Source: Blasia pusilla
Lineage: Eukaryota
NCBI GenBank assembly: GCA_050084515.1
Contig: CM114271.1
Span: forward strand, 1,736,001 to 1,800,000
Direction: 5' to 3'
Length of the DNA: 64,000 nucleotides
In this document: positions 2,560-42,423 of the stretch, one piece after another
How the letters are laid out: every line of letters starts with the position of its first letter
Numbering within the stretch: position 1 is the first letter of the stretch
Translations under genes and position numbers: made by a program
Notes under the pieces: model-generated
The model's database searches: none
Told to the model about the DNA's origin: nothing
What the model saw: only the letters and a program-made list of their open reading frames with translations

Positions 2560-5500
2560 TGTAATTGACCATGAGAAAATAATGACGTAGATAATTAAAT
2601 TCTTACATTTTTTAAAGTTTGATCTTTAGACTTATTTATAGTCATGGCAAAAGCAATACGAACAGGAAATTGAAATTTACGTAAATCAAAAGGTAAATTC
2701 GAGTCCGATGCAATCAGTCGGATACGTGGGATAAACATTCGATCTTCAGTGTTCCTCCCAGTTATGATTTCGGCATCAATGACATGTTGCATGAATCCAC
2801 AAATCACCAATCGGGTTCCATTGGCTTGTCCCTTTGAACCGTTCAAGTTTCATACGAGCATGAAAGGTGAACCGATTTTCAAACATAGACGATGTGGTGG
2901 TAAACTAGACGATAAGCACGTATTTAAAAAATCTATGGGATAGAAATGACTCATTCCTTCTTCCGGAATGGAATCAACACTAAGGAAAGTACCTTCCTTC
3001 ATAGAACAAACATAACTTAGAAGATGATTTAAACTTCAAGGCATAATACATTTAAAGAACCCATGAAGAAATTCTTATTTAAAGTATTGGAAAACCAATA
3101 TTATCTCTCCATAAAATGAAGATATAACCTCGAAATTGATGTCATCAATGTCTAGATTTTTTGTGTAATAATTGTTGTATCTATCAAAACGTTAATATCA
3201 CGAAACTTTTCAGAATCATTTCCATAGATGATGTCAATAAGATCACTTGTTTTCTTACTCTTGGTCATCATATCATTTGGTAATTGTATAAAATCATCTC
3301 CCAAGTGAGCTTGCAAAGGTACACGACCCTCTCCCACCTCCAATAACCAATCTGCAAACGCTTGTTGTTGTTGTCACATCTTATTTCGACGTAGGGAGAG
3401 TTCTATCGTGTCGACGGCATAGAGAGTCAACGGACTATTTGGGTGTAACTTCGTCCCGAGATGTCGAATAAGGTTGGCAACAGGTCTATTGTGTCGGGAA
3501 CATTGTTTATGGCCATTTCCCTATTTTTTGTTTTAGTACGTCAAGTGACCCGTTGACCGAGTCAACGATCACTCGGTAACCTGCACACGTAGGTTACCGT
3601 TGGTAGGGATATTTTTGGGGGAAGAGCCTTTTGGCTCTTCCCAAGGGTATAAGAGTGAGGAAGATGGCTTTCCCAAGCCATCTTTCTCATGTTGAGCCTT
3701 AGGAGTGCCTCTTTTGCATAGACGTGTGTGGGTATGTAGGAGTTAGGGTGCTAGCGTCCGGATTCCCTCATAGTAGAGGATGGACGTGGTTCGATATATC
3801 AATGTAGATTCATGAGTGGAGTTTTAGGCCGGTTGAGTCATTTTTACTACTCTTGATTTTCTTGTGGGGTCCCTAGTGTATATGCGTGAGTATGTTTCAT
3901 TTATGTGTAGATCTAATCATATGTTGGGGAAGATCGGTGTTGTGTGGTGTGTAGATATGACCAGCGATGTGGATTGTGTAGCGATGTGTATGCGCACGAT
4001 ATTGTACACGTATGTTCACTTCCAAATTTTGAACCCTCATATTTGTTGTAAGCTTCATCACCCTCACATAAGGTCGTAAAAATGACCTCTTTAATGTAGC
4101 TTGAATAACTGTTGGGCGGTCTCTGTGACAAACAATAGGCAAGACTTGTCGAAAATCCCCACCGAAGATGATTAATTTGCCACCAAAAGGAACATTTCTG
4201 AAGTCTTCGGATACTACTTCCATAATATCTTGGAAGGACCAATTAACAGCCTCGAATAAATGGCGATGGGTCATAGATGCTTCATTTCATGTGATAAACC
4301 AAACCCTTTGAATTAAGTATGTAGCTTCGCTATTAGCTGGTAAACTACAAAAAAACACTCAAAGATATTAGTATAATGAGCAAAATATTTCACTCTTTAA
4401 TGGACTTGCAAAATGATGAATTGAGTAGACACTTCCTTGCAAGTAGAGTTTTCATCTACATTGATTGGAATCTTGAAACGTGAATGCGTTGTACGCCCTC
4501 CATCTAACAGCAAAGCAGCTATCCCTGATAAAGCAACAACTAAAGTTATACCTCTAGCACCTCGTACACTTGCAAGAAGAAGAGAGTATAACAAGGTTTT
4601 CCAATTTTGCCACGCCCGTCAATGAAGAACATTTTGGAATTGTGTGTAGTATCTCTCGCAATGATACTATCGAGATTATCATGTAAGGCATTCCAAATCA
4701 ATCGTTGTTCATCATTCAAACTCTCCTCTCCTAACCTATCTCGTTCATATAATGAATCTTGATCATAAAGAAGCTCTTCTACTTCCAAATGCGAATAGGA
4801 AGATGGAGCATAGAAATCAGCTTGGGGCATATTTGGGAAGTCAGATAGTCTCTTTCCTTGATCTTGAAAATAATAGTGGACTTCCAATAGTGCAGTATTA
4901 ACAATCAAAGCAGTGGGGGCAAGATCACGAATCCCTATTTTCTCTATAGATCCCATGATTCATGAAATAAGTCGATTAATAGAGGAAAGAAATAAGATAT
5001 GTGCAAAAGGAAATAAGAATAGGAATTACCTCATGTTGTTCATATAGGATATCATCTAAAATCGGGATAAGAAATTGACTCCATGGTTCAGAAGGTCGAG
5101 CAGGTATGTTATAGGACAAAATAACGACAAATAGTTGACAAAGCGCACGACTAGTGCGGATTTCATAAGCTTTTTGGAAGCATGAGTACACTTCCCTATC
5201 ATCCTTGAGAAGACCCATCTAAATAGCAGCCTCCTTAAAGGTTGGATATAAAACTCCATCCATATTTCTCAAGTACTCATATGTAGTTGCACCTTGAATC
5301 TGATGAAGTAGCAACCACAACCAATGGTGTTCTCCTTCATCTACACAAACATACATGTAAATATATATAATACATAAAGCATTGCAAATAATTTGGAAAA
5401 TGCATGAAAATGAACTCGAAGAGGGTTTAACATTATGCAAATTGCAAATAGATATACCTAGATGTGTTAGATATAAGCGACTAATCGGATGACCACAACC

Positions 5501-5835: not shown

Positions 5836-6203
5836 TGTCATGACCATATGGATTATGTCGTAGATTATAGTGTGCTAGTAGAAGTCATACCTTATGTAGG
5901 GTCGTAGTGTCTAGGTAGAAATGCGGTTTCATACATAGGGTTGGGGGTTACTCTGTTGAGGGTGAATTTTCCAGTAGGGCCCGCTCTTAGGTTGGAGGAT
6001 ATAGTGTGGAGTGCACTCAAAGAACAGTTAATTCTTTGAGTTGAGCCTGTTGCATTAGGAATTAGCCTTGGTAGTTAGTAGAGCTCTTGGCTATGGTGGT
6101 TCCCGCAAGCTTCGACCTGGATTCTCCCATCATGGAGTGGGTTTTGCTCGATTATATGTGATTCTATGCGTGTTTTATGACAGTAGGTCTTTCATGGATT
6201 TCA
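5836..6203 (+). repeat. Element 1 repeat A1 (368 bp)
   Basis: Direct repeat of 15156-15523, same length, roughly 6-7% differences by manual count. Confidence 0.92.
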
Positions 6204-7703
6204 CTCAAAGAACTAGAGTAGATCGATGGTAGCTTCGATTGTGGATCAGTAGGATCTGGTTAGGGATGATTGTGTACTCAACCGTGGATGTTCGTGGCTT
6301 GTGGCCTATGTTGGAGTTGGGAATCTGGTGTGTGGTTGATTGGGAAAGAGGCGCCTTGCTGAGAGCTTTCCAACGCGCTTTAGATCGCCAGATTTTGTGA
6401 AGGGAGTTGGAAGTTATCAAGGATTGAAGATTCTGGTTCGTGTTCGACGGTTTTCTGATGTGGAGAGCTTGGAGTGCGGAAGCTCTATTAAAGTTCATCC
6501 AGATTGGGTGAGAGGTTCCTGTTGCTACTTGTATTTTAATCTCATGTGAAGCTATATGCTTGAGTGTGTGGAGCGTTGCGGATTTCTACGCATGCATGAA
6601 TCTGGGCGGAGGCGCTGTCGGATTTGCTGGAGGTGTATGGACAGCAAGTTTGTCTGATTTTTAGCTCAGAGTACACAGCTCAGTTGTAGCTGATTTATGG
6701 TGGAGAGATAGCTATGGTGGTCAATTGAATTATGGTAAAAAAGATTCAATTTTGGTCTAGGATTTGTGGAGTAATTGTTGATCGAAATTTCGCGGACTAG
6801 CTCAAGGTCTGGCTATGGTGGACAGCAGATCAGAGGGGCTGGTTGGTTGGTGACTCGTTCGTTGTTGGAGACGCCTATCCTATTGGGGGCACCCTGGTTG
6901 GGCCTCTCTCCATGGCAAAGCATGGCGAAGCGTGGCGAACGGGGCATGTCTTGGCATTTTGAGGCTTCGAGGCAACTCATGGTAGCTCGGGGCAAGTGGG
7001 CGTGAGAGGCGGAGTAAGGAGCAAGGAGCAAGCAAGCAAGCTTGGGCGTGAGGCAGTTTTTGCACGATTTTTTATTTGAATGTTGCATAACTGGTCATCC
7101 ATCTTTGGGCTATTCTGCTTGGAAGACGCTTAACTGCTGAGTTCTTAACTATGCTAGTGTATACACTAGTGTAGCTCATTTGGTGTTGTTCGGAGATGTG
7201 TTAGACGCTTTATGCATCTGAGGTTTTTGGTTGATGGACCTCTAGCACATAGTACGGTGTAGTCTCTCCATGCAGGTGAGATTTTCAGGTGCTGCGAGTC
7301 CGACTAGCACGTCATCGACCCGCAGCGGAGTAGCTATTGTGTTAGAATTGTGTGGTGGGTTATGTGGATTCAGGGGGCGCCACGTTTGGTGGATTGTGTT
7401 ACCTTGATTTCCATTTGCGATTGGAGGGTTGTCGTTGGACTTCCTATGTTTGGATCCCCTCCATCGTTGCTTCTTGCTTGCACGCCCATTGTTAGGGTTG
7501 ACGCTGATTTCCAAAGTAGTGTTACTCCTGTGTGCTACCGGTAGTGAGGCTGGAGTGATGACCAGTAGACCGTGGGAGGCTGCTTGTGGTGCTGACACGT
7601 TAGGTTGCCTACACCCATAGCTAGTAGAGCTAGAATAGTACAGCGACATCGACGCCACTTGGTTACTTAGTGGTGGTAATTTGGTGGTGGTGCGGCATCA
7701 GCG

Positions 7704-10700
7704 TTGGTCATCACGGAGCTGTCTGGTGGTCTGGTTGGGGAACGTGGTGGTTTCACACGGAGTGGATTGAGGTATCGGCTACCTTTTCCACTTCCGACGA
7801 TTGATGAAGAGGAGGACGAGGTGTTCCAAACACCGAGTCTTCTACGTTGTTATCGAGTGTTGCAGCTCCATTCATTTGGGACATGGACTGGATATATGGG
7901 GCCATGAAGGGCCCACAACGATACTCGAGTGCAGTGGGTACTATTGAGTTGGAGGACTTCATGCAGAAGTTTGATACGTGGTGTGATATGCAGATGCTCC
8001 GTAACGCCACGTTATTTACACCCTCCTTGGCTTGGAAGGGGTTGTTTCAGCACTTGGAGGGACCACTCATGGATGATTACCATGAGTTTAGGAAGGACCA
8101 TGTTGCTGAGATTGAGGCGTGGAGACAATATTGGTCTCCAGACTATGTGTCTATCACCCATGGTGGTATTGGTAGTAGTGCTCCTACTATGCCAGCCAGC
8201 CCGACGTTGAGTGGTACGAGTAAGAGCCGGAGTGGGGGTACCAATGGAGGTACCAATAGGGGTACTAGTGGAGGTACTAGTGCCCCACCATCGTTCAGCC
8301 CGGTTGCAGAGTTCTTCAAGAGGTTGAAGAAGAATTATTAGGGAGTGAAGCGAGAGAAGTTGAGGAGTCTTCAGGAATTTGAGCGAAAGACTGGTGAGAG
8401 TCTTCGTGAGGCATACACTCGTATGCGACGTTTGATTCCAGTTACCTAGGGTGTGACTGAGGCTCAGGAAGTCCAGTTTTGGTATGGGATCTTGGACAGA
8501 GAGTTACGCCGCAGGGTACGTGATGTTACTCTTATGAGTGATGATTCACCCACATTGACCCATGTGCTTGCTCTATCTGAGAAGATTGAGCTTAACATGA
8601 TGAAGGAGAGAGTGGTGACATCCGTATTTAGCAGGGATACAACTACTACTTCTCGTGTTCAGCATCCCACCTTACAATCTCATAGTAGTGGTGGTGGTAG
8701 TAGTAGTGGGAGTCATGGGGGGTACACACGACCTCAGTCAGGTCCTAGAGGGACACTTGCGCAGAGACCATTGCCTTCATTTGCTGCCCCGCAGCAAGGA
8801 CAATCATGTTGGACACGTGGAGGTGATCATGTTAGGAGGTTTTGTCCCCAAGAGGATGGGAGACGGACTTTGGAGGATGGGCCTCAGTCGGCCCCAACTC
8901 AGTGGTATCATTGCGGGAGACCAGGTCATCCTCGAGAGCGTTGCTTTGATCTTCATCCAGAGTTGAGATCAGGCTGCGCCCGCGGTGGAGTAGCTCCGAG
9001 AGGCCGAGGTGGTAGAGGTGGTAGGGGTGGTAGAGGTGGACCAGTGGTTGGAGAGCCTACGGTGGCTACCCCAACCACTACGACAGAGTCAGCTATGGGT
9101 GCCAGGATTGAGCAGTTGGAGCAAAAGTTGGCTACTATGGCTGGTATCCAGCATAGATCAGGTTCGGGAGCAGGGGCTTCCACCTCTTATGGAGGGGATG
9201 ATCTCTCTTATATGGCAAGAGCAGCACAAGTTGAGGCATCAACTGCAATTACGAGAGGAGCCACTCAAGCGTCAAAGCCACGTGGTGCTACCCTAGAGTT
9301 TGACCCACATAGGGGTGAGGCTGGGAGGCAGGCTAGGCTTCCCAAGTCATTCTTGTTGTCTGAGGTGCTTAGGACTCCATCCATGGTTCCTACGCAGCCT
9401 ACTAAGCCGACAGTGGGGACTGAGGCATCTACATCGCGTGTAGTAGACACAGATGCAACATCCAGTGCAGTATTGCGGATGGCAACTTCAGTGTTGGGAT
9501 CCCCATTGTTTTTGGCCACGAAGCTGATGGCTTTAGGAGTTGACTTAGCTCATGTATTTTAGCTAGCAGCCACGTTGTGTGAGCGTGGGGGTGTTACTGC
9601 TACACTTGCTGAGGTGGATGAGGGTGTTGCGGTGGAGCGACCCTCTATGTCAATTGTAGCATTGAGTACCAATGCTACTTGGTAGGCAGCAACGGCGAAG
9701 ATGGATGCATTACCAGCCCGGCCAGCCATTGATCGTGTGAGGCTTACACCTAGTATATGTATGTTGGACAACCGGAGTGGGATATTCCGATTGGTGAGTC
9801 CTACAGGGCAGGTGTATAGACCAAATAGAGTCTTGTTAGACTCTGGTGCCCAACCTTTGATGTTGGGAAAGGCGGCATGGATTGGTTTGGGTATTCAGAG
9901 GTCAGAGCTTGAGCCTTGCCCATTCCAGATTCAAACATCACTTAGAGGATCCAATGATAGGTCTCAATTCATGACACAGGATAAGTTCTCTGTACAGTTG
10001 AGACTAGATCATGCGACAGATAGCTCCCGGTTGGGAGTACCTGCAGTGGTCACATTAGCTGAGTCGTATGATGTACTAGTTGGAGGAGCAGTATTGTACC
10101 CCGATGGGTTTTCACATGGATTACTGGACTGAGACACCGTCTTATAGACCGGGTTGGCAGTCCGGAGATGGACGTATAAGCCAAGATCCTGTGAGATTTA
10201 TTTATGGGGCTCGACCAGGAGGGTCTTCCCCAACGGTGTTAGCATCTGTGGCTGGTTTTAGTGGAGTAGTCACTTGGCCATGAGACTTTTTGGAGGGTAA
10301 TGTTTCTGCTATGGATTCTCCTGTGCATGAGGAGGTAGAGGAGGTCCCTAGTTTTGCAGCAGTGGCATTCTCATCGTTGGATGTGCCACTTTGGAGTTCA
10401 GGCGGTGCACTACGGCAGGAGGCTGATCGCCTAGTGCATAAGGCTTGGTGTGAGGCTCTTATACCTCATGAGGAAGAGGAGGCCCCACGGCAGACTCTTA
10501 CTTCTGGTCCAATTGGGTTATCCCATTTGGATACTAAACCCATTGTATGGCAGTATCCGCCGGAGGGCATTTGTGTGTTAGATCTCTTTGGTGGGATTAG
10601 CACTGGTTTGGCTACAGTGTTGCAGACCGGTATTCCTGTGCGGAGATACGTGTATGTGGAGCAAGATGAGACGGCCTAGAGAGTCTCATCCAGATATATC

Positions 10701-13700
10701 GGTCAGTTGATGCGGAGATATCCTGAGTTGTTACCGCCATCAACTATTCGTGGGTACCAGCGTGCTTTGCCGTCACATATTGCATTGTTGGGGGCGCAAG
10801 ACCTTGAGAGGGTTGGTCCTGTGGATTTGGTGATTTCTGGATGGCCATGTCAGGATCATACACGTGCTGGTCGTGGTGAGGGATTACACGACCCTAGGTC
10901 TCAATTTTTTGGGAGATGTTACGGGTGTTACGACATCTTCCGGTTCATCAGGCACGTGCTCCAACTTACATTCTGGAGAATGTTCCATTGTTGGGTGACA
11001 CTCGGACCCAGATGATGGCGAGTGTTCATGAGGTGTGGTCTTGGATTGGATCAGCGGTGTTGTTGGATGCAACGCAAGTTGGCTCATGTGCACATCGTCC
11101 ACGCTTGTGGTGGACAAACTTGTTGCCTAGGGAGGTTCTACATCGAGCATATGATGCAGTGTAGCGGAATCCTTGCCTTACAGTGGGTAGTATCTTGGAT
11201 AGTGGGCGACTTTCTCAAGTGGTGAGGGTTATTGATCGGTCACCCATGGCAATGGTGAACCGTGTGGGCCAGCCTAGGATGGCACTACCCACATTTGTGA
11301 GTTTTCCCTCGTCACATGGCTATAGGGAAGGTGGTCCCGGGCTTGTATGGGATTCTCATGTGCGACAGTTGGTGGAGCCTAACGCTGATGAGAGAGAGCG
11401 TGCGATGGGATTTTCTACTGGTGTGACAACGGTTGCTTCCATTTCTGAGGCTTCACGACGTCATGTGTTGGGTCAGGTCATGGACCTGAATTGTTTGACT
11501 TGGATTTTGAGTCTTGGTATGGCCGAGCAGCGTCAGCTTCGGACTATGTCTGTGGGTCTTCCACCCCTTGTGATGAGTTCGATGGCTACCGAGACGGTCG
11601 AGGCATCGGTTGGGGGCCAGGAGAGTAGTATTTTGCATCCTTGGAGTAAATGGGATGTAATGGCTGGGCATGTGGAGTTGGTTGCTCATGCTGGTGGAGG
11701 AGTTATTTGCTCAGATAATGGTGTAGCTAAGGGTATACCATCTTGTGAGGGGGTTGCGTTGCAGCCAATGGCATCGTCCTCTCCCTCTAGTGTGTCAATG
11801 GAGGAGACTTGGGAGCCATTACTTGGGCCCAAGCTTACGGGAGGTGAGAAACGACGCTTGACACAGTTCCTACGTGCTTATAGGAGTTGTTTTTCCTTTA
11901 GCATGAAGGAGTTGGATGCTTTGGTTGGACCCAGTATACGGATTGATTTGGCTAGTGATACGCCAATCTTCCGTCGTCCCTACCGATATAGTGATATGGA
12001 GAGGGACCTGATTCAGAGTAGGACGTTGGACCTTTTGGAGGCTGGATTAGTGGAGTTGTCGCATGGAGAGTATGCATCAACGATTGTCATGCCTGCTAAA
12101 AAGGATATGCATGGCAACTACACGGATAGGCGGATGTGTGGAGATTATAGTCCTACCAATCGGCAAACCAAGGCCAATAGGTATGCCATGCCTACACCTG
12201 TGGTGGGACAGGCAAAGATTTTCAGTATTTTGGATCTTCGGCCAGGATACCATCAATTACCGATTCGGGAGAGTGACAAGGCCAAGACAATATTTTGAGG
12301 TGTCAACTCTCATGGCAAGGATTTTTTGTACCAATGGAAATTCTTACCCTTTGAGTTGAAGAATGCACCTGCCGAGTTTCAGAGAGTGATGGACAGGACC
12401 CTAGCAGGGTTGGATTTTGTTCGGTGTTACATTGATGATATCTTGGTGTTCAGTAATACGGTGGAGGAGCATCAGATACATTTGCGGATTGTGTTTGAGC
12501 GGTTGAAAGCTCATGGTCTACGTTTGCATCCAGGACAGTGTAAGTTCTTTCATGAGGATGTTGAGTACTTGGGTCATGTGATCTATCCATGTGGTTTGGG
12601 AGTTCAGCAAGCAAAGGTGGAGGCTATTGCACTTATTTCGTGTCCGGTAGATGTGAGTAGAGTTCGGGCATTCATGAGATTGGTGAACTACTATCGGAGG
12701 TATGTGAAGGGATTTAGTGCTATAGCAAAACCTTTGAACCAATTGCTGAAATCAGATCAAGAGTGGCACTAGGGAGATGATCAGGAGAGAGCTTTTGTGG
12801 AGCTCAAGGCCTAGTTGGTGGCGACGCCTATCTTGAGGAGACCTATAAGAGGGCGCCCATTTTAGTTACACACTGATTGGAGTAGGCTGGGACTTGGAGC
12901 GGTGTTGACACAACATGATGATGAGCATATGGAGTGTGTGGTGGCCTATGCAAGTCGTTCGAATAATGCAACGGAGTCGCGCTATACTTCATATGAGGGA
13001 GAGTGCTTGGCAGTAGTGTGGACTGTGGCACACTTTAGGTGTTACTTGTTTGGCACATAGTTTACCCTTGTTATTGATCACCATCCGCTCAAGTGGTTGA
13101 TGGAGTCTGACAAGCTTACAGGGAAGCTTGCACGGTGGGCTCTTATCTTACATGAGTATGACTTCCAGGTGGTACATAGACCTGGAGTTGCCAACCTTGA
13201 TGCTGATGGGTTGAGTAGGAACCCATGTACTAGCCAAGAGGATGCAATTGGGGCTATATGGCATGGCGAGGTTGATGAGGAGATGGTGCCAAGTTGGCAT
13301 GCATCCGCCTTTTTATGTTGGTTAGGGATGGACTCTAGTATGGAGGACCACATGACTTCTTACTCTAGTTAGAGGGTAGATGGCCAGCCTTCACATCCTA
13401 AGGTTGGAGATGGTGGTACGGATCAGCATGATATTCATGATGATGCGTTGGTGTTGGAGTTCCTACAAACCAGTAGGGTGCCAGGCATAGTGAGTGCCAA
13501 GGAGCGAGACCGTGTTCTTCAACGTGCTAAGAGGTATCGATTGGAGGAAACACATATTCTCCGTGTGTGGGAGGATAGTAGAGGACAAGTAGTGCCGCAT
13601 TTGGCTCAGAATGAGCGTATTGTGCGACATGCCCATGAGGAGTTGGGACATTTTGGGGTAAAGCGTACATATAGCTTACTCCTTGGTCAGTATTGGTGGC

Positions 13701-14872
13701 GTGGCATGCATACTCAGGTGCAGCAGTTGGTGTCACGTTGTATGGTTTGTGTCCGGGTGAGGGCATCATTCAATGCCCCTACACCACAGTTACATCCCTT
13801 GCCTATTATGGGGTTGGGTTACCGTTGGAGTGTGGACTTTGCAGGACTATTACCGTTGACTGTACGACATGATCGATATGTGTTGGTGATGGTGGAGCAC
13901 TTCTCCAAGTGGATTTAGTTGGTGGCATTACCTGACAAGGCAAGTGAGGGAACGTCGTATGTGTTTCTTGATAGAGTGCTAAGTCATTTTGGTGCACCAG
14001 CTGAAGTGCTGACCGACCCGCGTACAGAGTTTTAGGGTGAGTTTTAGGTCTTGTGTGACAAGGCGTTGATTGATCATCGGACCACGTCTTGAGATCATCC
14101 AGAGGCGGATGGTTTGGTTGAGAGTGTGGTTCAGACGGTAAAGAGGGCATTGCGCAAGTATGGCCTACAGAAGGGACATCTTGGAGACTGGGATATTGAG
14201 TTGCCATGGTTAGCCATGGGGTATAGGTTAAGTCGCCAAGCATCCTTGGCTTCCTTCTCGCCTTATTTTCTGTTATACGGCCAAGATCCAGACTTGCTAG
14301 CAACAATTCTTCAGGAGTCTAATGAGGTGGTGAACCTTGATGACCCATAGATGTGGATGAGAATGTGTTCTCAGCGGGCATAGCTCTTTCGGAGAGTTGT
14401 GCCAATAGCCTTTGAGAACCTTGCCATTGCTCAACACAGGGATACGTTGAGGTATGCAACCATTCGGGGTGGAGGTTATCGACCATCGATTCATAGGTTC
14501 CATGTGGGGGACTATGTCTATTTGCAGCAGATTGCACTGACAACGTTGGATGTGACGGCATGCCGCACTATTTTACGAGTGCGCGAGGTGTTAGCTTCTG
14601 AAGTTCTCATGTTGGAGGGTCGTGATGGAGTTGTTTGGAAGGACCATGTGCGTAATCGTGCGCCATATCATCTTCCAAATGTGGATGGTACTGTTGAAGC
14701 CAGCTTAGCCATGATACGTGCTAGCTTGAGGTGCATGTTGTGTGGGTCTGCTGGTAACGCAACCCGTATGTTGGTGTGTGATCAGTGTTCTAGGGGTTGG
14801 CACATGATGTGTTTGACTCCACTTATGGATGTTGTTCCTACTGGAAGGTGGGTTTTTCCTCGATGTACTTAG
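7704..14872 (+). pseudogene. Element 1 polyprotein Gag-PR-DNMT-RT-RNaseH-IN-PHD (stops and frameshifts)
   Basis: Degenerate zinc knuckles and an RGG tract; protease VLLDSGAQ; RT RRMCGDY, NAPAEFQR, YIDD; RNase H HTDWS..GLGAVL..YASRS; IN HEELGH..CMVC, DFAG, ADGLVE; C-terminal PHD. Confidence 0.92.
10569..11525 (+). pseudogene. Element 1 C5 cytosine DNA methyltransferase domain (DNMT3-like)
   Basis: Motif I VLDLFGGISTG, II YVYVE, IV DLVISGWPCQ, VI YILENV, VIII AHRPRLWWTNL, IX ERERAMGF, X RRHVLGQVMD, in canonical order. Confidence 0.9.
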
Positions 14873-15049
14873 GAGAGGTAGATGACTTGATCTTTGCATG
14901 ATATGGATTTCAGATAGACGACTAATGATGGGGCAACCTAGCACATGGCCTTCTGATTTGTGCACCCAAGAAGGTGTATAGCATGTAGTAGATGTATAGG
15001 GCTACCCGAGAGTTAGAGGGACCTAACCGCCAGTGAGGGGGGGGCGAGT

Positions 15050-15629
15050 TGTGGTACACTTGTGTTTGTGCATGCTCTCATCTATGTTATGTATGTATGT
15101 GAGTATGGTATGTCATCGATGTATGTTGTATGACGATGTGGATTCGCACGACAGTTGTCATGACCACAGGAATTATATCGTAGAGTATAATGTGCTAGTA
15201 GAAGCCATACCTTATGTAGGGCTGTAGTGTCTAGGTAGAGATGCGGTTTCATACATAGGGTTGGGGGTTACTCCGTTGAGGGTGACTTTTCCAGTAGGGC
15301 CCGCTCTTAGGTTGGAGGATATAGTGTGGAGTGCACTCAAAGAACAGTTAGTTCTTTGAGTTGAGCCTGTTGCGTTGGGAGTTAGCCTTGGCAGTGAGTA
15401 GAGCTCTTGGCTATGGTGGTTCCCGCAAGCTTCGACCTGGATTCTCCCATCGTGGTGTGGGTTTTGCTCGATTGTATGTGATTCTATACGTGTTTTATGA
15501 CAGTAGGCCTTTCACGGATTTCAATTGTGGTACACTTGTGTTTGTGGATGCTCTCGTCTATGTTATGTATGTATGTGAGTATGGTATATCAACAATATAT
15601 ATTGTATGACGATGTGGATTCGCACGACA
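15050..15629 (+). repeat. Element 1 3' block B1-A2-B2
   Basis: B1 15050-15153 and B2 15526-15629 are both 104 bp. The B1/A2 junction is GACA-GT-TGTC. Confidence 0.92.
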
Positions 15630-24996: not shown

Positions 24997-27965
24997 TAAA
25001 TAAAATAGAGAGAAACAAATCCACTATTGCCTTTCCGATCCGGACATCGTCGTACTTTGTCCGAGAACCCGATCAAAATTAGGGTTCGTTGAACTTCCTT
25101 ACCCTTACTGGCGAAAAACCCCGGTACGACTCGGCTTTTAACATTCCCGATCTGGACTTCCAAGATATTTCCCGTGTAAAGGTGACAGAACAGCCGACTT
25201 CCCATTAAAAAGTAAAAATGAAAAATAACTGTCCGAACCCCACGGGATGCCGCGATGACGACGGGCATAGCCGCATAGTCTCCTGGACAGGTGAGTGAGT
25301 AGTTACATATTTCCGAAGGGTAACCCATGTCCGGGGAGAACCGGCTCAACCGGGATTAAGTGTTGACCTAGTCGGCAGCATGTTTTAATTACCGATTCAG
25401 TTTCACCGGCCAAAAACCGACGGCCTATGCCAGCTCTCCTCCGTTGTATTCGTATCAGAATAGTAGACCGGCATCAGAAAACTTGCAAGGACCGGGAATG
25501 CACCGGTTCTCTCGAGAAACCTGACTCCCTGAGGATAACCCCTGCACACATGCGCACTCATTGCCGTCGGGAGTCGGGAGCCGGGAGTTCAATAAAAGAC
25601 TCGGGACTCACGGGAAAAGACGGGAATTCGGAAATGATGATTCCTTTCCACCGAGCGATCTTGATCTTGACGGCAGTTGAGGGAGTTCCATGGCGCGCCG
25701 TCTGCTGTACTGTCATCATATATGTCCTTATGTGGAAGTCAATCGAGCAGGTACAGGAGAATACATGTGGACCCGTACAACTCACGCGGATCGAGTTGAA
25801 TTTTCCGACAGTTGTGCCGTTCGATGTGGACAGTAGTAGACTAGTAGTAGTTCGCATGCATCTCGACAAAGCACCTGTTTTTTCCCCCTTTCTTTTGCCA
25901 GAGGAGAATTCAGGGGGTTCTCACCATATCGCCCGATGATATCGATCGGGGGCCTCAGAGCGCCTCTTGCGTCAAGTTTGCCACCTGTCCTTTCCGATTT
26001 CCCCGGGAATTTGAAATGATGGAAACCGAGGAGTGAGCGCGAAGTTGCGAACTAATTTGACGCGTTAATCTCGGATTAATGGATATCGTCACTGTTTTAT
26101 GGATGAAATGCAAATGAGGTCTCGAACAGTGCCATATTTTACGTTTGTATTTTGTATGTAAATACAAATTTTATACTATCATATTGTACACGGGTACATA
26201 TTATTCTCTTAACTTAGTTTGGTTGAGGCTTAATTTATTATTTTTCTTCTTCTTTAATTCCGTATAATGATGCATGTCAGCTGGAGATAAGTTTCAAAAC
26301 ACACGTCCATATTCTAATGGGCGACCTATAAATATAATAAAACATAATAGTACGTATAATAAGACATACTAGTGGGTTAATGAGACAAAAGAATCACAGT
26401 TTAAATTTCGTTTCTGGAATCAAATTAGATGAATAGAGAAAATGAATTTGAATGGGGAGAAGAAATTTTAATTAAATAAGAAATATTTTTATTAATTTTT
26501 ATTATATTGCGTGATATTAAAATATAATAAATTAAGATCATTAAAAAATATTTTTTTAAAATTCATATTTTATGGGAAAAGAAATTTTAATGGAAAAGGA
26601 GTAAATGTTATTTAAATTTGATTGAAGGATAGAATCGATTAGGAGATTGGGATATCATTTAAACTTTAATTAAGGATTGGAATTACTTAGAGAGGAAAGT
26701 ATAAACTTTAATAGAAACATTGGATTGGAATTACTTAGAAGGGTGGAATGTTATTTTTCTTCTAAAATTTATGAAAATAAAATTAGATGTAAATATTTAA
26801 ATGAAAAATTTATTATTCTTAAAAATAACCATGTTAATTCAAATTTGACATTTGGAAAAGGAAAATGAATTTGAATGGAAAAGGGAAGTGATTTCATTAT
26901 TTAAAATTAACTAAGAATTTAATTAGTGAATGTTATTATGGTAGGAAGAGTGGAAGGGGAAGGATAGATATTGTTAAAAATTTTATGGAGGAGTGAAATT
27001 ATTTTGGGGAATTGGGTGTTACTTAAAAGTATAATTTTACTACTCTTTTAAATTTTAAAAATTGTAAATATACTTAAATGTTAAATTTAAAATATTTCTA
27101 AATTATTAAAAAATAATTTTCGTGCACAAGCATAGGCATGCTAACAAGTATCAACTACAAGAGGATGGTTTTGTAAATCCATCTAATCTATTAATTAATT
27201 GGAGGATGTAATTTTATTTTCAGTTGATACTGGTTAGGACCCGTGAGGGAACTTGCGATGCACGAATCCTTGTAATTCAATGTCTTTATACATATGATCC
27301 TTTATACGTATTGTGTATATGTCAGGCGTCGGAAATTCCCAAGTTCCAAAAAACGCTTGTTGAATTCTGAAGTTTTCGCCATTCTAGAGCGCTCCTCAAA
27401 GAAAAATATAAACGTGGCAATATTTCCTCAAAAATATGTTTGGTTGCATTAATTGGGTTCATATAATGAGATTGGTAAGGAGAGTTGTCACATCTGAGTA
27501 GCCGATAGGCCGAGATCTATCGTGGATAGGGCGTAGGAGCCAGCGGACTATCTTGAGTGTAACTTTGTCCCACAGTGTCGGATGAGGTTGAGGATAGGTC
27601 CATTGTGTCAGGAACGTCGTTTCTGACGACTTCCATGTTGAGGTCTTTTACAGCCGGGTGACTTGTTGACCAGGTCACCTGCCCCTGGTAACCTGTGCAC
27701 ACAGGTTACCAAGGGAAGGGCTATTTTTAGGAGAAGAGCCTTTTGGCTCTTCCCAACCTATATAAGAGAGGAAGATGGCTTTCTTAAGCCATCTTTCTCA
27801 TGTTGGGCCGTTGGAGCACCTCCCTTGTAAGTGTGTGAGCTAGGACTAGGGTGCTAGCGTCCGGATTCCTTGATAGCACAGGGTGGACGAGGCTCGATAT
27901 GCTGATGTAGATTGAGGAGTGGAGTTTTAGGTAGGGTGTGCCGTTTTTACTACTCTTTATTTTTT

Positions 27966-27979
27966 ACATGAGAAAGATG
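27966..27979 (+). promoter_or_regulatory. Self-priming primer-binding site of element 2 (equivalents at 6203-6215, 37849-37863, 54541-54554)
   Basis: ACATGAGAAAGATG lies immediately after A1 and is the exact reverse complement of CATCTTTCTCATGT (27790-27803), about 30 nt downstream of TATATAA (27759). Confidence 0.75.
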
Positions 27980-28904
27980 TCAAGGGGCTGATGGGAATTC
28001 GCTGTTTGCAGGTAGGCAAGCGAGTTGCCTCGGTTGGGGAGCCCCCGAGACGCGTGTGTGTGCCATTTTGTGTCATTTTTCTGTTCAGAGGCGTGGGGCG
28101 GAAGCGCTGTCCGTTTTTCTCAGATTTTGCTGGTGCAGATTGTTGGGGGACAGCAGTCGAGTGTAGCGTGTGGTGGGGCGTCGGATGTATGCAAGTGAAG
28201 GCGTCGAGAGAGAAGGAACGGGCAGGTTTGGGTCTTGCGGTCCACGGGGGTCAAGTAAAAGGCTAGAGTTAGGTCTCAAATTTAGGGCGGGCGCGGACGG
28301 GCGGCGGCGGTGGCGATTTAGCCGGGGGCGTGGCGGACGGGGCGGGCGCAGCAGAAAGCGCGACGGCGGGCGGACTGGCGTGCGCGTGATGGCGCCCGCC
28401 ACGCGGGAGTGTTATGTGGCGGAGATTGTCATATCATGTGGAGGAGTGCATATTGACGGGCAAAGAAAGTTGAGGGCGTGATCAGGTTGGTTACCCATTC
28501 GAGTCCCTTTTCCCGCACTTGTCGTGGTGTGATTGAGAGTGTTGGATATCGGGTAGTAGCGGTGCTAGATGGGTGCGATGATGGTGACGAGTGTAGATTC
28601 TTTTCATGTGTAGCATGTTGGTGGATATACGGCGGTTGCGAGTAGGGTCGCGTCGCGTGTATGACTCGAGAGTGTGTCGCTAGGTTAGGTGAGTCGGTTG
28701 GGGGAGGCTCATGGTGAGCCCGAGTGTTGAGCGCGCGTGAGGCCGGGTATGTCATCACGGGATTGACGTTAGCATAGGTGAGCTAGTGAGGCGTGTGGGA
28801 GACTCTCGGTGAGTATGAGTGCTTGAGCGGGTGAGACAGGGTTTGTCATCACGGCGTTCTTCCAGGGTTCGGAAGAACGGGGTAGTCTGGCGATGGTAGT
28901 GGTG

Positions 28905-31900
28905 TGACACGGAGTGGAGTGAGATACCGAGGGGTTACCGAGGAGCTCCTCGACATCCATCGTCGGATCGATCGTCATCATCGATGGACCGGTCCGGTGA
29001 CGAGATCACCGACAGAGACAGTAGTACTTGGCAGGAGATGGATGACATGGGCCATCGGGGCATGCATCGTTTCTCGGGTGTAGTGGGCACCATCGACTTA
29101 GAGGATTTCATCCAGGAGTTCGACACATGGTGCGACTTCCAGAGATACGGACCCGACACGGTTCAACCCTTTCATGGCATGGAAGGGGTTGTTCCAAAGA
29201 TTTTGGAGGGTCCTCCGATGGATGACTACATGGAGTTCCGATCACTATATTCATTAGAGATCGATGCCTGGAGGATGTATTGGGCTCCAGGGTATGTGTC
29301 CACTAGTGGTCGCGAGGCATATGATGGGATTGTGAGAGGAGAGAGACCCACACCATCATCCCGGAGACTAGATGGAGAGGAGGGCAGTGACACAAAGCGA
29401 TGTGCAGAGACCCGGGTGGTAGAGGGCCACCCGGCCCAAACCCCCACAAGTGGAGTTCTTCCGACGGTTGGGGAAGAGCTACCGGGCGTATGCACCGGCA
29501 AGTCAAGAGTCTACAGGATTTTCAGCGACGATCGGTGAGAGTCTAAGAGAGGCCTTCACACGCATGAGGAAGCGATCATTGCTACGTTTGAGGATCGAAG
29601 CGCGGTCCCAAAGATTGGTACTGGGGTTCGGACCAAGAACTACGGAGGAGAGTCCGAGATGCGGTCTTTGATTCACACAAAAAGCCCACATTGAAGGTGG
29701 TCTTTGAGTTGTCTGAGCGTATTGAGCTCAACATGAGTGAGGAGCAGGTAGTGACCGCTAGATTTTCTCGAGAGTCAACAGGTCCACGAGCGGCGGTGAC
29801 CCCACCGGTGCCACAGCGAGCACCAGTACCACGGGAGCGGGCCAGTGTGCCTAGAGAGCAGGGCGGGTACCGTGAGCCTATGAGGCAATGACCCGCACCT
29901 ACATATGTTGCCCAGCAGGGACCGGTGTGGTCTTGTTGGACGTGTGGAGGGGCCCATAGGCAGAGAGACTGCCCACAGCATGGGAGTGGACCACCAACGC
30001 CTCCGATTGCGCAGGAGCCACAGAGGATGGCCCCACCACAGCACCAGTGTGACCATTGCCACAGATATGGTCAAACTAGGGAAAGATGTTTTGACCTTCG
30101 CCGAGGGGCACGTCCAGAGGTAGGCCGAGGGCCTGGGGGCGGTCATCCTGAAGGAGGTCGGGGAGTTCTTCCTGGACGTGGTGGTAGAGGACTACCACCA
30201 GCCAGAGGAGATGGAGCAGGAGCACCAGAGCCGGCACTTCTCTCACGCATTGATTAGTTGGAGCAGAGGATTGCTGCCATGACGATGATGCAGCTAAGGG
30301 AAGGCACGGAGCTGCGAGCGGCCTAGTGTGACTCATCTCTACCTCTTACCCGACCGGTGAGGATCTCTCCAATATGGGATTCATCTCAGAGTGCAGCCCT
30401 GGTTGAGGCAAGCTCGGTGGTGACTCAGGGTGCTCGCGAGAGGCACCGAACCATCGAGAGGTGGAGTTGAGATTGACCCACCTAGAGGGGACCGATGGGC
30501 GGCAGCCGGGTTCCCTGATCGTTCACATTGTCGGAGGCACTACACACACCATCGATGGTGCCTTGGCGACCAGCGGTGCCTCTGATTCAGGCACCTACGT
30601 CAACGTCACGAGGAGTTGGAGTGACAACTCCTATGCCGGCTCGAGTGGAGTCAGTGTCGACTATAGTGTTGGAGGTGGCCACTAGAGTGAGTCAGACTCC
30701 GCTATTTTCCGCCTTAGAGTTGGCGACGTTGGGAGTTGGACCAGCTGAGGTGTTCCGGTTGGCCACCACGTCGTGTGAGCGTGGAGAGGGGACTGCTTCT
30801 TGTTCAGAGGTAGTTGAGGAGGTGGTGGACTTGCCCTCGAGCGGGGTGCCGGGACGTTCCCCATAGAGTCATGGCATGCGGCGGGCGGGAAGTTGGTAGA
30901 TATGCCACTCGACCGCCATATAGAGAGCGAAGTGGTGACACATGGAGTAGTGTTACTCGATAACCGAGCTGGAGTATTTTGCTTGGTTAGTCCGATGGGG
31001 ATAGTATACCACCCGCAACGCGTCCTACTTGATTCGGGAGCGCAACCCTTGATGTTAGGGAAGGCGGCGTGTTTAGCGTTGGGGTTACGGAAGGCCGACA
31101 TTGAGCCTTGTCCCTTCCGATACACCTCGATTGGGGCATATCACCCACTCAAAGATATGACTCGGACAGAGATTGTTGTGAGAGTCCAGCCAGAGCATGC
31201 GACGGATAGTGCTATGGTGCACACACGTGCGATTACGACACCTGCAGAGTCGTACGATGTGTTGGTGGGGAGTACAGTGTTATATCCCCTAGGATTCATC
31301 CTTGACTTCTGGGAGAAGACCGTTGCTTATCGGCCAGGATGGCGGTGAGGTGACGGTCGGATGAGTCAGTTACCCGTGCAGTTTGCGGGACAAGGTGGTC
31401 GATCAGGAGGTGAGTCTGTGACCACGTTGGCGGCTTTCATAGGTAGTGTTAGCTGGCCAAGAGAGTTGTTGGAGGGGAACGCACATGCGGAGGATGTCCC
31501 AGTAGCGGATAGTCCCACGGAGAGACAGGCCATGGCGGGTGTCTCTTCCCATGTTAGCGATGCCTCTTCACCATTATGGGGTACGACTCGAGAGCTATAG
31601 AGGAGTGCCGACGACCTCGTGAGGCAAGCGTGGAGTCATGTTTTTATCCCAGAGCAGCGAGAGTCACGTGGCGATCGGGCTCTTGGAGTGGAGACGATGA
31701 CCCCACTAGATACCACACCTGTTGTGTGGCAATGCCCAGAGGAGGGTGTTAGGGTGTTAGATCTCTTTGGAGGGATTAGCACCGGATTGGCTGCAGTATT
31801 GCAGGCGGGCACACGGGTGCATCAGTACCTTTATGTCGAGAGAGATGAGACCGCACGGCGAGTATCATTACGTCACGTGGCGAGATTGGTCCAGAGGTAT

Positions 31901-34900
31901 CCTGAGTTGTTGTCGGTATCTGCAGTACGGGGATACCAGCATACGCTACTCGTCGACATATCTTTGGTGGGGGCATAGGATCTGGATAGAGTTGGCACCA
32001 TTCATTTGGTGATTGCTGGATGGCCATGTCAAGGTCATTCATCAGCTGGCCGAGGATTTGGATTGCAAGATCCGAGGTGAGGGATGTTTTGGGAGATGCT
32101 GCGAGTAGTACGACACTTGCAGCAGAGTCAGATATGTTCTCCAACGTACATTTTGGAGAACGTGCCGTTGTTGGGAGATACTCGTGCACGTGTGATGACG
32201 AGTGTACATCAGGTGAGGTCCTGGTTGGGACCGGCTGTGTTGTTAGATGCAGCGAGAGTTGGGTCACGTGCCCATCGCCCACACATCGTGGTGGCGAACT
32301 GATACCATCGAGGTATTGAGTCGAGCCTACGTTGAGTCGAGAGCACCACATCTCACGGTGGATGCTATTTTGGACCGGGCGCCGATCTCGGTGGTGACAC
32401 GCGATGATAGACCACCGCGTTGGCCATGGCCAATAGGGTGGGGGAGTTGAGGGCAGCCTTACCTACGCGTTGGTGAGCTTCAAAGATCCCATGCCTTTGT
32501 AGGAGGGCAGGCATGATTTGGGATGAGGTGACCGGAGTATTGAGGAGCCTATAGCGAGATGAGCGCGAGCGCGCCATGGGGTTCACTACTTGTACTACGG
32601 CGGTGCTGGGGATGACCGAGGCATCACGGAGACAGTGTTGGGGCAGCGATGGACCTCAACTGTCTCACATGGATAGTCACCTAGGTATGGCGAAAGCAGA
32701 GACGGATGCGAGTGTCATCCATGCCCTCACGCCCACGAAGTTGGACCACCGCCGGCTGTGGTTTGTACTTGGCATTGGATGGGGCGAGACAAGGAGAGAT
32801 AGGCACCCATGGACTTCCTGGGACGTCGTTCGAGCAGAGAGTGCGAAGGCGGCTAGAGTAGCACATGTTCATTTTTCGGATATGGAGCATGGTGTAGGAG
32901 GTCAGAGTGGAGTGGCTGTTGCGGAGGTGGCTAGGGTTGCTACATAGCAACCAAAGCCGGAGGTTGCGTCCTCTCCGAGTGAGGTCACGATGGAGACTTG
33001 GGAGCCTGTGATAGGTCTCAAGTTGATAGGAGGAGAGCGACGGCAAGTTCATAGGTTTCTGAGAGGGCATGTCAGTTGTTTTGCCTTCAGTATGAGAGAC
33101 TTGGGTACGCTGAAGGGTCCCGGGATACGGATTGAGTTGGCTAGTGATACGCCGATCTTTCGTCGACCCTACAGGTATTTTGATATGGAACGAGCCTTGA
33201 TTCAGAGCAGGAGTCATGACTTGTTGGAGGCAGGACTTGTGGAGTTGTCACATGGGGAGTATGCATCTGCCACAGTCATGCCGGCGAAGAAGGATATGTA
33301 TGGCAATTGGACGGATAGGCGGATGTGTGGAGATTACGGTCCTATCAACCGACAGACGAGGTCAGATCGGTATGCCATGCCTACTCCTGAGGAGATCTTT
33401 GATGCGGTAGGGCATGCAAAGATCTTGAGTACTTTAGATCTTCGTGTTGGCTATCATCGCCTTCCTATCAAAGTTGGAGGGACGGGAGAAGACATCATTC
33501 TAGGGGATAGATCGGTTCGGGAAAGATTGCTTATATCAGTGGCGGTTCTTACCATTTGCGTTGAAGAACGCGCGTGCGGAGTTTCAGAGAGTGATGGATA
33601 GGATTCTGGCTGGCTTGGATTTTGTATGATGTTACATAGATGATATTCTTATCTTGATTCCATGGTTGAGGAGCATGAGGACACTTGGAGGAGGTGTTTG
33701 GCGATTGCAGTTACATGGACTGCAGTTACATCCGGCAAGTGAGATTCTTTCAGAGCAGATTGAGTACTTGGGACACACCATATACCCGAGTGGGTTAGGC
33801 ATTCAGTAGACGAAGGTAGAGGCTATTGCGTAGATTCCACGCCCTACAGATGTGAGTCGAGTCCGAGCATTTCTTGGACTGGCGAACTTCTATCGACGGT
33901 ATGTCAAGGGTTTTAGTGCGATCGCAAAGTCTTTGACCTTGTTGATGAGACTTGATCAGGTGTGGTTGTGGGGAGATGATCAGGAGCGAGCATTTCAGGA
34001 GCTCAAGGACAGGTTGACGTCCTCACCCATTTTACAGAGACCGGTTAGGGGTCGCCCATTCCAGTTACATACGGATTGGAGCATGTTGGGTCTAGGAGCA
34101 GTGCTTACTCAGAGGGATGACGAGGAGAGGGAGTTTGTTGTGGCTTACGCGAGTCGATCGAACAACATTGCAGAGGCGAAGTACAGCTCCTATGAGGGAG
34201 AGTGCTTGGCTGCAGTGTGGGCCGTGGCACATTTTAGGTGCTATTTATTTGGCAACCCTTTCACACTTATCACCGATCATCACCATTGAAGTGGTTGATG
34301 GAGTCCGACAAGCTTACGGGAAAGCTTGCCGGTGGGCTCTATTACTACTGAGGAGTATGAGTTTGAGGTGGTTCATAGGCCGGTCGGCTGAACCAGGATG
34401 CGGATGGGTTGAGTCGTAACCCATGTCCGAGTAAGAGAGACGTCACGGGAGCTCGATGGCACTGAGAGAGTGATGAGGAGATGGTGCCCGGTTGGCATGC
34501 ATCTACCTATCTTTGTTGGTTGACTATGGCAGGTCAGCCACAGGTGAAGACTCCAGTGGTGGGATTGGATGATGAGTCTTTGGATCCGGAGGTTAGTGAG
34601 GAGGCGACAGGTGGTCGTGATATCCATGACGACGTGGAGGTTGTGGACTTCTTGCGCACAGGCGTCATTGCGAGTACAGTGAGTGCTAGGGAGCGGGATC
34701 GGATCCTACAAAGAGCCAAGAGGTTCAGGTGGGAGGGGACTCACATTTTGCGGTTATGGGGAGATGGTAGGATACGAGTGGTACCTCATCCCTCCCAGCG
34801 AGCACGTGTAGTGCGACATGCCCATGAGGAGTTGGGACATTTCGGAGTAAAGCGTACTTACAACTTACTCTAGGTTCAGTATTGGTGGCGCGGCATGCAT

Positions 34901-41900: not shown

Positions 41901-42423
41901 GCGAGCCAAGGCGATAGTGACTGATGAAGAGTCCTACGACATCTTGGTTGGTGGAGCAGTGTTATACCCATTGGGGTTTTTCCTGGATTACTGGGAGGAG
42001 TTAGCGTCCTACAGACCAGGATGCCAGTCAGGTGATGGGCGCCTTAGCTCATTACCCGTTTGATTCACAGGTGCAGTGATGGAGCGACGGCCAGGAGATA
42101 TGGCGACCTTAGCAGCATTTAGCAGTGCTATCACTTGGCCTAGTGATTTGATCGAGGGACATGTCCATGCAGAGGATACTCCCATTCCTGACATTTCTAT
42201 GCAGAGGAATGTCATGGTAGCCCCATCAGTCCGTGGAGGAGAGGTGCCGCTTTGGGGCTCGACTAAGGAGCTTTGACGCTTAACCACTAAGCATGTGCAA
42301 ACGGCATGGAGCGAGATGTTTGCACCGGAGTGTGACAGGTCAGAGGAACCCCAAGTAGGCAGGAGTGCTGCTATGACCCCTTTGGACACCACCCCGATTG
42401 TGTGGTGCATCCCAGAGAAGGGT

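What the first reader, a model, noticed from the sequence alone, without database searches (positions are those of the whole stretch)
15140..15165. The integrase attachment site appears to have moved to an internal palindrome, GACA-GT-TGTC
Seen: the B1/A2 junction is CGACA GT TGTCA in elements 1 (15149-15160) and 2 (36171-36182). It is mutated in element 3 (47028-47039) and corrupted in element 4. The element termini are this same junction with the central GT missing. The last ~35 nt of B (...GATGTRTRTTGTGTAGCGAT.TGTATGCGCACGACA) are conserved between otherwise dissimilar families. The canonical LTR ends are not conserved: A ends in TTATTTTT with no CA in elements 2/4, and B starts differ. Known: retroviral integrases remove a dinucleotide after a conserved CA. 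Inference: integrase cuts this internal palindrome. It does so in only one of the two copies, because A-B-A-int-B is never seen here.
Basis: partly seen in the sequence, partly recalled or inferred. Interest (0 to 1): 0.8.

Follow-up and report, generated by a model that had tools for sequence, protein, structure and literature searches.

The report
Gypsy retrotransposon integrating from internal palindrome
This plant jumping gene appears to join the two ends of its DNA copy together and then reopen it at a short palindrome inside its end repeat before inserting, a route that textbooks treat as a dead end for this kind of element.

Summary
Confirmed and extended. The window holds four Ty3/gypsy elements (DNMT3-like domain, RT, RNase H, DDE integrase, PHD) laid out A-internal-B-j-A-B. 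They have 4-bp target duplications and TGTCA...CGACA ends.

The junction j has 1,233 and 594 pattern matches genome-wide. Its spacer is almost always 2 nt (GC, GT, AC or AT), so the original is probably the perfect palindrome GACAGCTGTC, not GT.

A Tf1-like self-priming site follows A1 and a polypurine tract precedes B1, so reverse transcription should yield B-j-A-internal-B-j-A. A|B joints sometimes retain primer-site or polypurine-tract bases, the signature of ligated cDNA ends. Inserted copies therefore begin and end at j, not at the cDNA ends.

The permutation A-B-j-A-internal-B was not found (0 of 1,748 pattern matches; 0 of 101 junction matches inspected). Best model: integrase opens an end-joined 2-LTR circle at the left LTR's j. 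The cut itself is inferred, and why only that copy is used is unexplained.

The layout was noted once in print (KnitGypsy-Dnmt3, a figure legend) without a mechanism. This scan reported it twice before on other DNA.

The parts
15149..15160 (+). Junction j of element 1: B1 end (CGACA), 2-nt spacer (15154-15155), A2 start (TGTCA); the inferred integrase site, left uncut in this copy
   Evidence: genome-wide counts
5836..15629 (+). Element 1, A1-internal-B1-j-A2-B2; target duplication GTAT at 5832-5835 and 15630-15633
5836..6202 (+). A1 (5' repeat; starts at the A half of j, ends at the predicted cDNA right end)
6203..6215 (+). Self-priming primer-binding site, complementary to a stretch inside A
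   Evidence: 13-nt match to A2, 10 nt to A1; no control 26-mer reached either length
10569..11530 (+). Broken DNMT3-like C5 cytosine methyltransferase region upstream of RT
   Evidence: tblastn with relative P0045, E 1e-27 and 2e-15; weak Pfam DNA_methylase E 0.002; a relative's natural ORF hits DNMT3A at E 5e-11 and Pfam at E 7e-9
11804..14872 (+). Broken pol: RT, RNase H, H2C2 + DDE integrase, C-terminal PHD finger
   Evidence: relative P0012 (61% identical over this region) is closest to Ty3 Gag-Pol among solved structures, E 4e-101
15035..15046 (+). Polypurine-tract-like primer directly before B1
   Evidence: B1/B2 identity starts exactly after it
15047..15153 (+). B1 (predicted start of U3; last 40 nt conserved across families)
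15156..15522 (+). A2, with a TATA-like motif at 15320-15324 and the self-primer stretch at 15349-15361
15523..15629 (+). B2; the A2|B2 joint at 15522/15523 is the inferred ligation of the two cDNA ends
27486..36795 (+). Element 2: duplication GAGT; A1 27486-27965, primer stretch 27790-27803, PBS 27966-27979, PPT 36030-36037, B1 36038-36175, j 36171-36182, A2 36178-36657, B2 36658-36795
37333..47679 (+). Element 3: duplication AGCC; A1 37333-37848, PBS 37849-37863, PPT 46896-46904, B1 from 46905, mutated j 47028-47039
54062..63222 (+). Element 4 (same family as 2): duplication ATAT; PBS 54541-54554, PPT 62452-62459, corrupted j 62593-62612
3372..4001 (+). Solo A-B of a fourth family, duplication TTGT

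Best explanation
A Ty3/gypsy retrotransposon whose reverse-transcription ends and integration ends have come apart. (1) Inferred: RNA starts inside A1 about 25-30 nt after a TATA-like box. Its first 13-16 nt fold onto the site just after A1 and prime minus strand, as in Tf1. Plus strand is primed at the purine tract before B1. The cDNA is therefore B-j-A-internal-B-j-A. (2) Shown in fossil form: the right end (A end) and the left end (B start) are ligated, usually bluntly and sometimes with leftover primer bases. Within one molecule this is a 2-LTR circle. (3) Inferred: the DDE integrase nicks after CA on both strands of the palindrome GACA-RY-TGTC in the left LTR. That leaves two CA-3'OH ends with 2-nt 5' overhangs, the same shape as processed retroviral ends. 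It inserts them with a 4-bp stagger, giving A-internal-B-j-A-B, and the spacer of the cut junction is lost. (4) The uncut j before A2 is transcribed and supplies both junction copies of the next round. Why the right-LTR copy is spared is not known. My preferred guess is that the left copy becomes double-stranded first and captures integrase.
For: Termini equal the two halves of j, with exact 4-bp duplications in 13 of 14 elements whose two ends were found (24 examined). Spacer is 2 nt in 97 of 100 and 95 of 100 listed junctions across unrelated families. A 12-16-nt PBS/primer complement was found in 13 of 13 elements in three families with different sequences, and no control 26-mer reached that length. 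41 A|B joints of one family begin with PBS-type bases; several carry 6-24 PBS bases, and one carries both PBS and PPT. Two more retain PPT bases. B2 is closer to its own B1 (0.924) than to other B1s (0.893) or B2s (0.892), n=23, so it is recopied each cycle. PPT-B-j: 773 matches. A-end|B-end: 1,748, of which 4 continue into j. Those 4, and a fifth locus, are tandem repeats, not the permutation. 0 of 101 inspected junction matches show A-B-j-A-leader or flank-B-j-A-leader. Integrase is H2C2-DDE-PHD, and Pfam scans of the longer ORFs found no tyrosine recombinase. The same layout and termini occur in metagenome contigs, with exact duplications in 3 of 3 complete copies. Precedent: HIV-1 and foamy virus integrases cut palindromic 2-LTR junctions after CA in vitro (PMC1905944).
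Against: No biochemical or cDNA data. A closed circle has two junctions in identical local context, so the one-sided outcome is not predicted by the model. Ligation after strand transfer, or an RT end-to-end jump, gives the same fossil. The transcription start is inferred only; RNA reads from a related organism did not mark it. The sister test is weak: own B1 was the best match in only 8 of 23. The primer-complement search in metagenome copy L160 found no match of 8 nt or more. The E2/E3 spacer counts do not fit simple independent deamination from GC (p 0.0007), although the E1 counts do (p 0.34). Some PBS-derived inserts (17-24 nt) run beyond the 16-nt primer complement and need shifted priming to explain.
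Confidence: 0.68

Rival explanations
1. Same integrase site, but no free circle. Integrase cuts the left j on the linear cDNA (it lies only 106-138 bp from the end) and inserts both halves. The leftover cDNA ends (A end, B start) are then joined in the chromosome by host repair. Alternatively, reverse transcriptase joins them by an end-to-end jump, giving a three-junction linear molecule.
For: Gives the same product and the same primer remnants. Offers natural reasons for one-sidedness (distance to the end, or pairing of half-sites from different junctions). It would also yield A-int-B and solo A-B directly, and both exist with 4-bp duplications.
Against: Needs a chromosome break to be repaired correctly at every insertion; duplications are intact in 13 of 14. 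Head-to-tail dimers would also give the missing permutation. No direct evidence.
Confidence: 0.2
2. Integrase cuts either junction equally, but the permuted product A-B-j-A-int-B collapses quickly by deletion between its two nearby A copies into A-int-B.
For: A-int-B copies exist. 16 of 40 sampled non-canonical PPT-B loci had no A after B, and 6 of 8 with A1 in reach had exact duplications. They look common among metagenome relatives (not de-duplicated).
Against: They are only about a fifth of PPT-B copies in this genome (estimate), not half. No uncollapsed example in 1,748. Tandem B-j-A-B-j-A arrays with the same A spacing persist.
Confidence: 0.05
3. Ngaro/PAT-like route: the RNA runs A1 to B2, reverse transcription makes the TGTC...GACA ends itself using B1-j-A2 as a splint, and the A|B joint is inherited.
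For: Same repeat order as Ngaro (PMC3783388).
Against: It does not explain the self-priming site after A1, or B2 beginning exactly at the PPT boundary. It does not explain variable PBS/PPT remnants at A|B. 4-bp duplications and a DDE integrase are present, and no tyrosine recombinase was found.
Confidence: 0.05
4. Ordinary LTR element (LTR = A-B) whose 5' LTR lost B and whose 3' side gained a duplicate by accident or misassembly.
For: A2-B2 and solo A-B look like canonical TG...CA LTRs.
Against: Hundreds to thousands of copies in at least three families and in independent metagenome assemblies share the layout. The PPT precedes B1, not A2.
Confidence: 0.01

Closest known systems
KnitGypsy-Dnmt3 of Klebsormidium nitens (de Mendoza et al. 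2018, PMC5890265; read section 9 whole, other passages, and a term search of supplements)
   Same: Gypsy domains, a Dnmt3-like methyltransferase in Pol, and per the Fig. 4c legend a repeat structure 'the same as that of a DIRS retrotransposon'. Our elements carry a DNMT3-like region before RT.
   Different: That paper gives no termini, duplications, priming sites or mechanism in the parts I saw, and 'PHD' does not occur in its main text. Here the host is, by its homologues, a bryophyte-like land plant.
Tf1/Sushi and plant Tcn1 Ty3/gypsy elements (PMC11042837, PMC6317226; passages)
   Same: Self-priming instead of a tRNA primer; cDNA ends that often keep PBS and PPT bases.
   Different: They integrate from the cDNA ends and show two full LTRs, with a chromodomain. 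Here there is a PHD finger, split repeats, and ends defined by an internal site.
Ngaro/PAT tyrosine-recombinase retrotransposons (PMC3783388; passages)
   Same: A-pol-B-A-B repeat order; a circular intermediate (recalled).
   Different: They lack a DDE integrase and use a tyrosine recombinase; this element has DDE integrase and 4-bp duplications.
Integrase cleavage of retroviral 2-LTR circle junctions, HIV-1 and foamy virus (PMC1905944 abstract and section 10; PMC2884000 passages)
   Same: A DDE integrase nicks after CA on both strands of an internal palindrome.
   Different: [quoted passage not shown] Here the palindrome is a heritable site inside U3, separate from the end joint, and appears to be the main route.
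IS3/IS30-family circle-junction transposition (recalled, no call)
   Same: A DDE enzyme opens two abutted ends separated by 2-3 bp.
   Different: Bacterial DNA transposons; the junction is made by the transposase each time rather than copied through RNA.
Gypsy-7a_cRei of Chlamydomonas (PMC9940879; passages)
   Same: Gypsy with a PHD finger; the legend notes that the left LTR lacks the last 8 bp of the right LTR.
   Different: PHD is listed before the integrase; whether the 8 bp recur before the right LTR could not be checked. Lead only.

Membership tests
Ty3/gypsy LTR retrotransposon | Gypsy-type RT-RNase H-integrase order with H2C2/DDE integrase | tested here: met
Ty3/gypsy LTR retrotransposon | 4-6-bp target site duplication and TG...CA termini | tested here: met
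   13 of 14 exact 4-bp
Ty3/gypsy LTR retrotransposon | Two complete LTRs flanking the inserted copy, PBS after the 5' LTR and PPT before the 3' LTR | tested here: not met
   Inserted copies are A-int-B-j-A-B; PBS and PPT bound a permuted unit B-j-A
Ty3/gypsy LTR retrotransposon | Placement within a named plant clade on an RT tree | not tested
   No named references were in hand; 'PHD' does not occur in the REXdb paper's main text
Tf1/Sushi-Tcn1 self-priming chromoviruses | PBS complementary to the RNA's own 5' end | tested here: met
   13 of 13 by sequence; the RNA start itself was not mapped
Tf1/Sushi-Tcn1 self-priming chromoviruses | C-terminal chromodomain | tested here: not met
   Pol ends in a PHD finger followed by a stop
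Ngaro/PAT (tyrosine recombinase) | A-B-A-B split direct repeats | tested here: met
Ngaro/PAT (tyrosine recombinase) | Tyrosine recombinase, no DDE integrase | tested here: not met
   DDE integrase present; no recombinase family in Pfam scans of 21 and 20 sequences; not every short or minus-strand frame was scanned
KnitGypsy-Dnmt3 group | Dnmt3-like domain in a Gypsy Pol | tested here: met
KnitGypsy-Dnmt3 group | DIRS-like repeat layout | tested here: met
KnitGypsy-Dnmt3 group | Direct sequence kinship to the Klebsormidium element | not testable with these tools
   Its sequence was not retrieved; the supplement search gave no sequence

The most novel reading that the evidence does not exclude
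An old green-plant Gypsy lineage (streptophyte algae to bryophytes) for which the 2-LTR circle is the obligate substrate. Its integrase acts as a site-specific endonuclease on a heritable internal palindrome and tells two identical copies apart by strand age or by marks laid by its own DNMT3-like enzyme. This would be a third integration route for LTR retroelements, convergent on Ngaro's repeat layout but with a DDE enzyme. The methylation part is speculation.
Probability: 0.55. Interest if true: 0.9.

Novelty: new variant of a known kind. Interest (0 to 1): 0.78.

Why it matters
LTR elements with DDE integrases are taken to integrate from linear cDNA ends, and 2-LTR circles are treated as dead ends. 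Here more than a thousand insertions in one genome record the opposite, with the end joint and the integrase site physically separate so that each can be tested alone. This makes an old question, whether circle junctions can be true integration precursors, directly testable on a natural system. It also suggests why self-priming elements with untidy cDNA ends might move their attachment site inward. Practically, finders that need two full LTRs will miss or mis-annotate this abundant family. It also extends methyltransferase-carrying Gypsy elements from one alga to land plants.

Tried and rejected
1. Inverted hybrids as proof of integrase cutting. Some copies read A end, then the reverse complement of A from the primer site back to TGACA (L123, L140/L142; 23 pattern matches in the own genome). 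I first read these as integrase cutting an inverted j. One search (15 of the 23 inspected) showed a mixed class. At least one is a simple inversion between the primer and PBS inverted repeats (L204), and others may be invasion of an existing A. They support A-end/primer continuity only.

2. A genome-wide j-A-PBS count could not be made with one long pattern. That question rests on 101 inspected junction matches and the short-range patterns.

3. Mapping the transcription start. No RNA holder was listed for the stretch. Reads of a related organism laid at 85% identity were mostly sense-strand over the internal region but marked no start. I draw nothing from this.

4. Telling whether A-int-B and solo A-B come from direct insertion or later recombination: not separable here.

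5. The REM1 paper was not held, and the Gypsy-7a_cRei sequence was not in the searchable supplement (that file was cut when stored). Either may bear on novelty.

6. The two other GACA-NN-TGTC matches in the window (19532, 24039) are not in element context.

7. tRNA priming was not tested against a tRNA library; the bases after A1 simply do not begin TGG.

8. No RT tree was built.

Full report
1. Observation. Self-comparison of the window shows four elements laid out A1-internal-B1-A2-B2 and one solo A-B. The junction reads CGACA-GT-TGTCA at 15149-15160 and 36171-36182. It is mutated at 47028-47039 and corrupted at 62593-62612. Each element starts at the A half of this junction and ends at the B half, inside a 4-bp duplication: GTAT, GAGT, AGCC and ATAT for elements 1-4, and TTGT for the solo. 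The last 40 nt of B are 75-95% identical between four families; other end segments are 40-63% identical outside the sister pair E0-E2.

2. Coding content. Pfam finds RT, RNase H, the integrase H2C2 finger and a terminal PHD finger. The translated stretch shows a broken DDE-type core. Homologues come from liverworts, Sphagnum, Coleochaete and metagenomes. The Coleochaete relative is closest to Ty3 Gag-Pol among solved structures. All four elements also carry a broken DNMT3-like region before RT. A relative's natural ORF matches DNMT3A at E 5e-11, and 60 of 116 loci tested show the region (many are too short to include it). No tyrosine recombinase was seen in the frames scanned.

3. The junction genome-wide. 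The exact 15-mer occurs 504 times, control 0. Family patterns with a free spacer give 1,233 and 594 matches. Among the first 100 listed in each, the spacer is 2 nt in 97 and 95. It is GC, GT, AC or AT in 92 and 89 (counted by eye). GT and AC are equally frequent, as expected if both decay from GC by deamination of methylated C on either strand. An independent-decay model fits the element-1 family (p 0.34) but not the pooled element-2/3 families (p 0.0007), where GT and AC may also be inherited. The site is best written GACA-RY-TGTC and is probably a perfect 10-bp palindrome in origin.

4. Where reverse transcription puts the ends. A G-rich tract lies directly before B1, and B1/B2 identity begins exactly after it. 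The 12-16 nt directly after A1 are the perfect complement of a stretch inside A, about 25-30 nt after a TATA-like motif. This holds in 13 of 13 elements from three families with different sequences, and control 26-mers from the following 3 kb never reached that length. This is the Tf1 self-priming arrangement (PMC6317226 and PMC11042837, passages). The LTR as reverse transcriptase sees it is therefore B-j-A, and the cDNA should be B-j-A-internal-B-j-A (inference). One metagenome copy, L160, gave no complement of 8 nt or more.

5. The A2|B2 joint. It is usually the exact join of the predicted right end to the predicted left end. In one family 41 joints begin with PBS-type bases. Most carry two to four, several carry 6-24, and one has both PBS and PPT between A and B. 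Two further joints keep PPT bases (L080, L099). Tf1 cDNA often keeps PBS and PPT at its ends, and HIV-1 circles are reported to retain both (PMC11042837 passages). B2 is closer to its own B1 than to other B1s or B2s (0.924, 0.893, 0.892; n=23), though it is the best match in only 8 of 23. So the joint is made anew from cDNA ends each cycle, and the inserted ends are not the cDNA ends.

6. One-sidedness. PPT-B-j matches: 773. A-end|B-end matches: 1,748, of which 4 continue into j. These 4 and one more locus are tandem repeats of the B-j-A unit, none followed by leader. Of 71 junction matches inspected in the element-2/3 families, 55 are int-B-j-A-B and 8 are truncated or interrupted after A. 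Three have disturbed upstream context, 3 are head-to-tail tandems (B-j-A-leader; 2 with internal sequence confirmed upstream), and 2 are chance matches. Of 30 in the element-1 family, 29 show A-B downstream and 1 is truncated. None is A-B-j-A-leader, and none is an uncut flank-B-j-A-leader. Samples come from the start of contig C1, and the patterns demand exact motifs, so old copies are under-counted.

7. Other products. Of 1,408 PPT-B ends, 635 lack the exact junction. In a sample of 40 of these, 22 have a mutated junction, 2 are A|B joints and 16 run into flank. Eight of those 16 had A1 within reach; 6 show exact 4-bp duplications, 1 is ambiguous and 1 does not match. A-int-B is thus roughly a fifth of copies. 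It may come from 1-LTR circles, from cutting both junctions, or from B-B recombination. Among full elements, 14 of 24 examined had both ends in reach; 13 have exact duplications and 1 has a single mismatch.

8. Other hosts. Eighty metagenome loci related to element 1 (69-84% protein identity) show the same PPT, B, junction and A. Three of 3 complete copies have exact duplications, as do 5 of 9 A-int-B copies. Several loci are the same insertion in different assemblies, so these are not independent counts.

9. Mechanism. Nicking after CA on both strands of GACA-RY-TGTC yields two CA-3' ends with 2-nt 5' overhangs, the geometry of processed retroviral ends. HIV-1 integrase cuts its circle-junction palindrome in just this way in vitro (PMC1905944, abstract and section 10). 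The conserved B tail is unlikely to be a promoter for genomic RNA, because A1 has no B upstream; an integrase-binding role is the simpler reading (inference). Shown: termini, duplications, priming signals, ligated ends, one-sidedness. Inferred: the cut, its agent, the circle, and the order of ligation and insertion. I put about 0.9 on ends defined at j with a ligated end joint. That splits into about 0.68 for a circle and 0.2 for linear or post-insertion joining.

10. What is known. The layout was noted once: the Fig. 4c legend of de Mendoza et al. 2018 says KnitGypsy-Dnmt3 has DIRS-like repeats with Gypsy domains (PMC5890265, section 9 read whole). Nine library searches turned up no paper that describes termini or a mechanism for such elements. 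I judged most of those hits from listings only. The library lacks most subscription papers, theses and Repbase, and REM1 could not be read. Two earlier notes of this scan report the same layout in other genomes; they are not independent support.

11. Verdict. Real, abundant and widespread. It is a Ty3/gypsy variant that fails the two-LTR criterion and whose insertion route differs from the textbook one. Interest 0.78.

Noticed in passing
window 10569-11530 (also about 31750-32450, 42650-43370, 58530-59020): All four elements carry a broken DNMT3-like cytosine methyltransferase before RT; relatives hold it in natural open frames. I found this reported only for Klebsormidium.
   Followed up: yes
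window 15516-15527; L258-L287: In the element-1 family the A|B joint itself reads CA-GT-TG, and all families start B with RTTG and follow A with an early CA. These may be vestiges of ancestral canonical ends.
   Followed up: partly
L123, L140, L142, L203-L217: Hybrids in which the A end runs into the reverse complement of A from the primer site; mixed origins (inversion, invasion or long primer).
   Followed up: partly
L017, L221, L030: Head-to-tail tandems sharing one uncut B-j-A, about 3 in 69 junctions; resembles the integrase-independent tandems described for Tf1.
   Followed up: no
L061, L062/L065, L063, L064, L066: Tandem expansions of the B-j-A unit.
   Followed up: partly
window 22384-23122 and about 49999-50992 (minus strand): Old fragments of related families; the first keeps a degenerate PPT and the start of B but no junction.
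   Followed up: partly
window 2542-2984 and 24288-24729: A 444-bp repeat, 74% identical, in opposite orientation; unrelated to the element.
   Followed up: no
L030 (G000:C1 near 6314130): A long (TG)n expansion inside B1.
   Followed up: no
L033, L086: A nested insertion inside B1 (L033) and a short duplication at the junction (L086).
   Followed up: no
P0161, P0145: Metagenome relatives in which the methyltransferase lies between RNase H and integrase rather than before RT, so the domain order varies in the clade.
   Followed up: no
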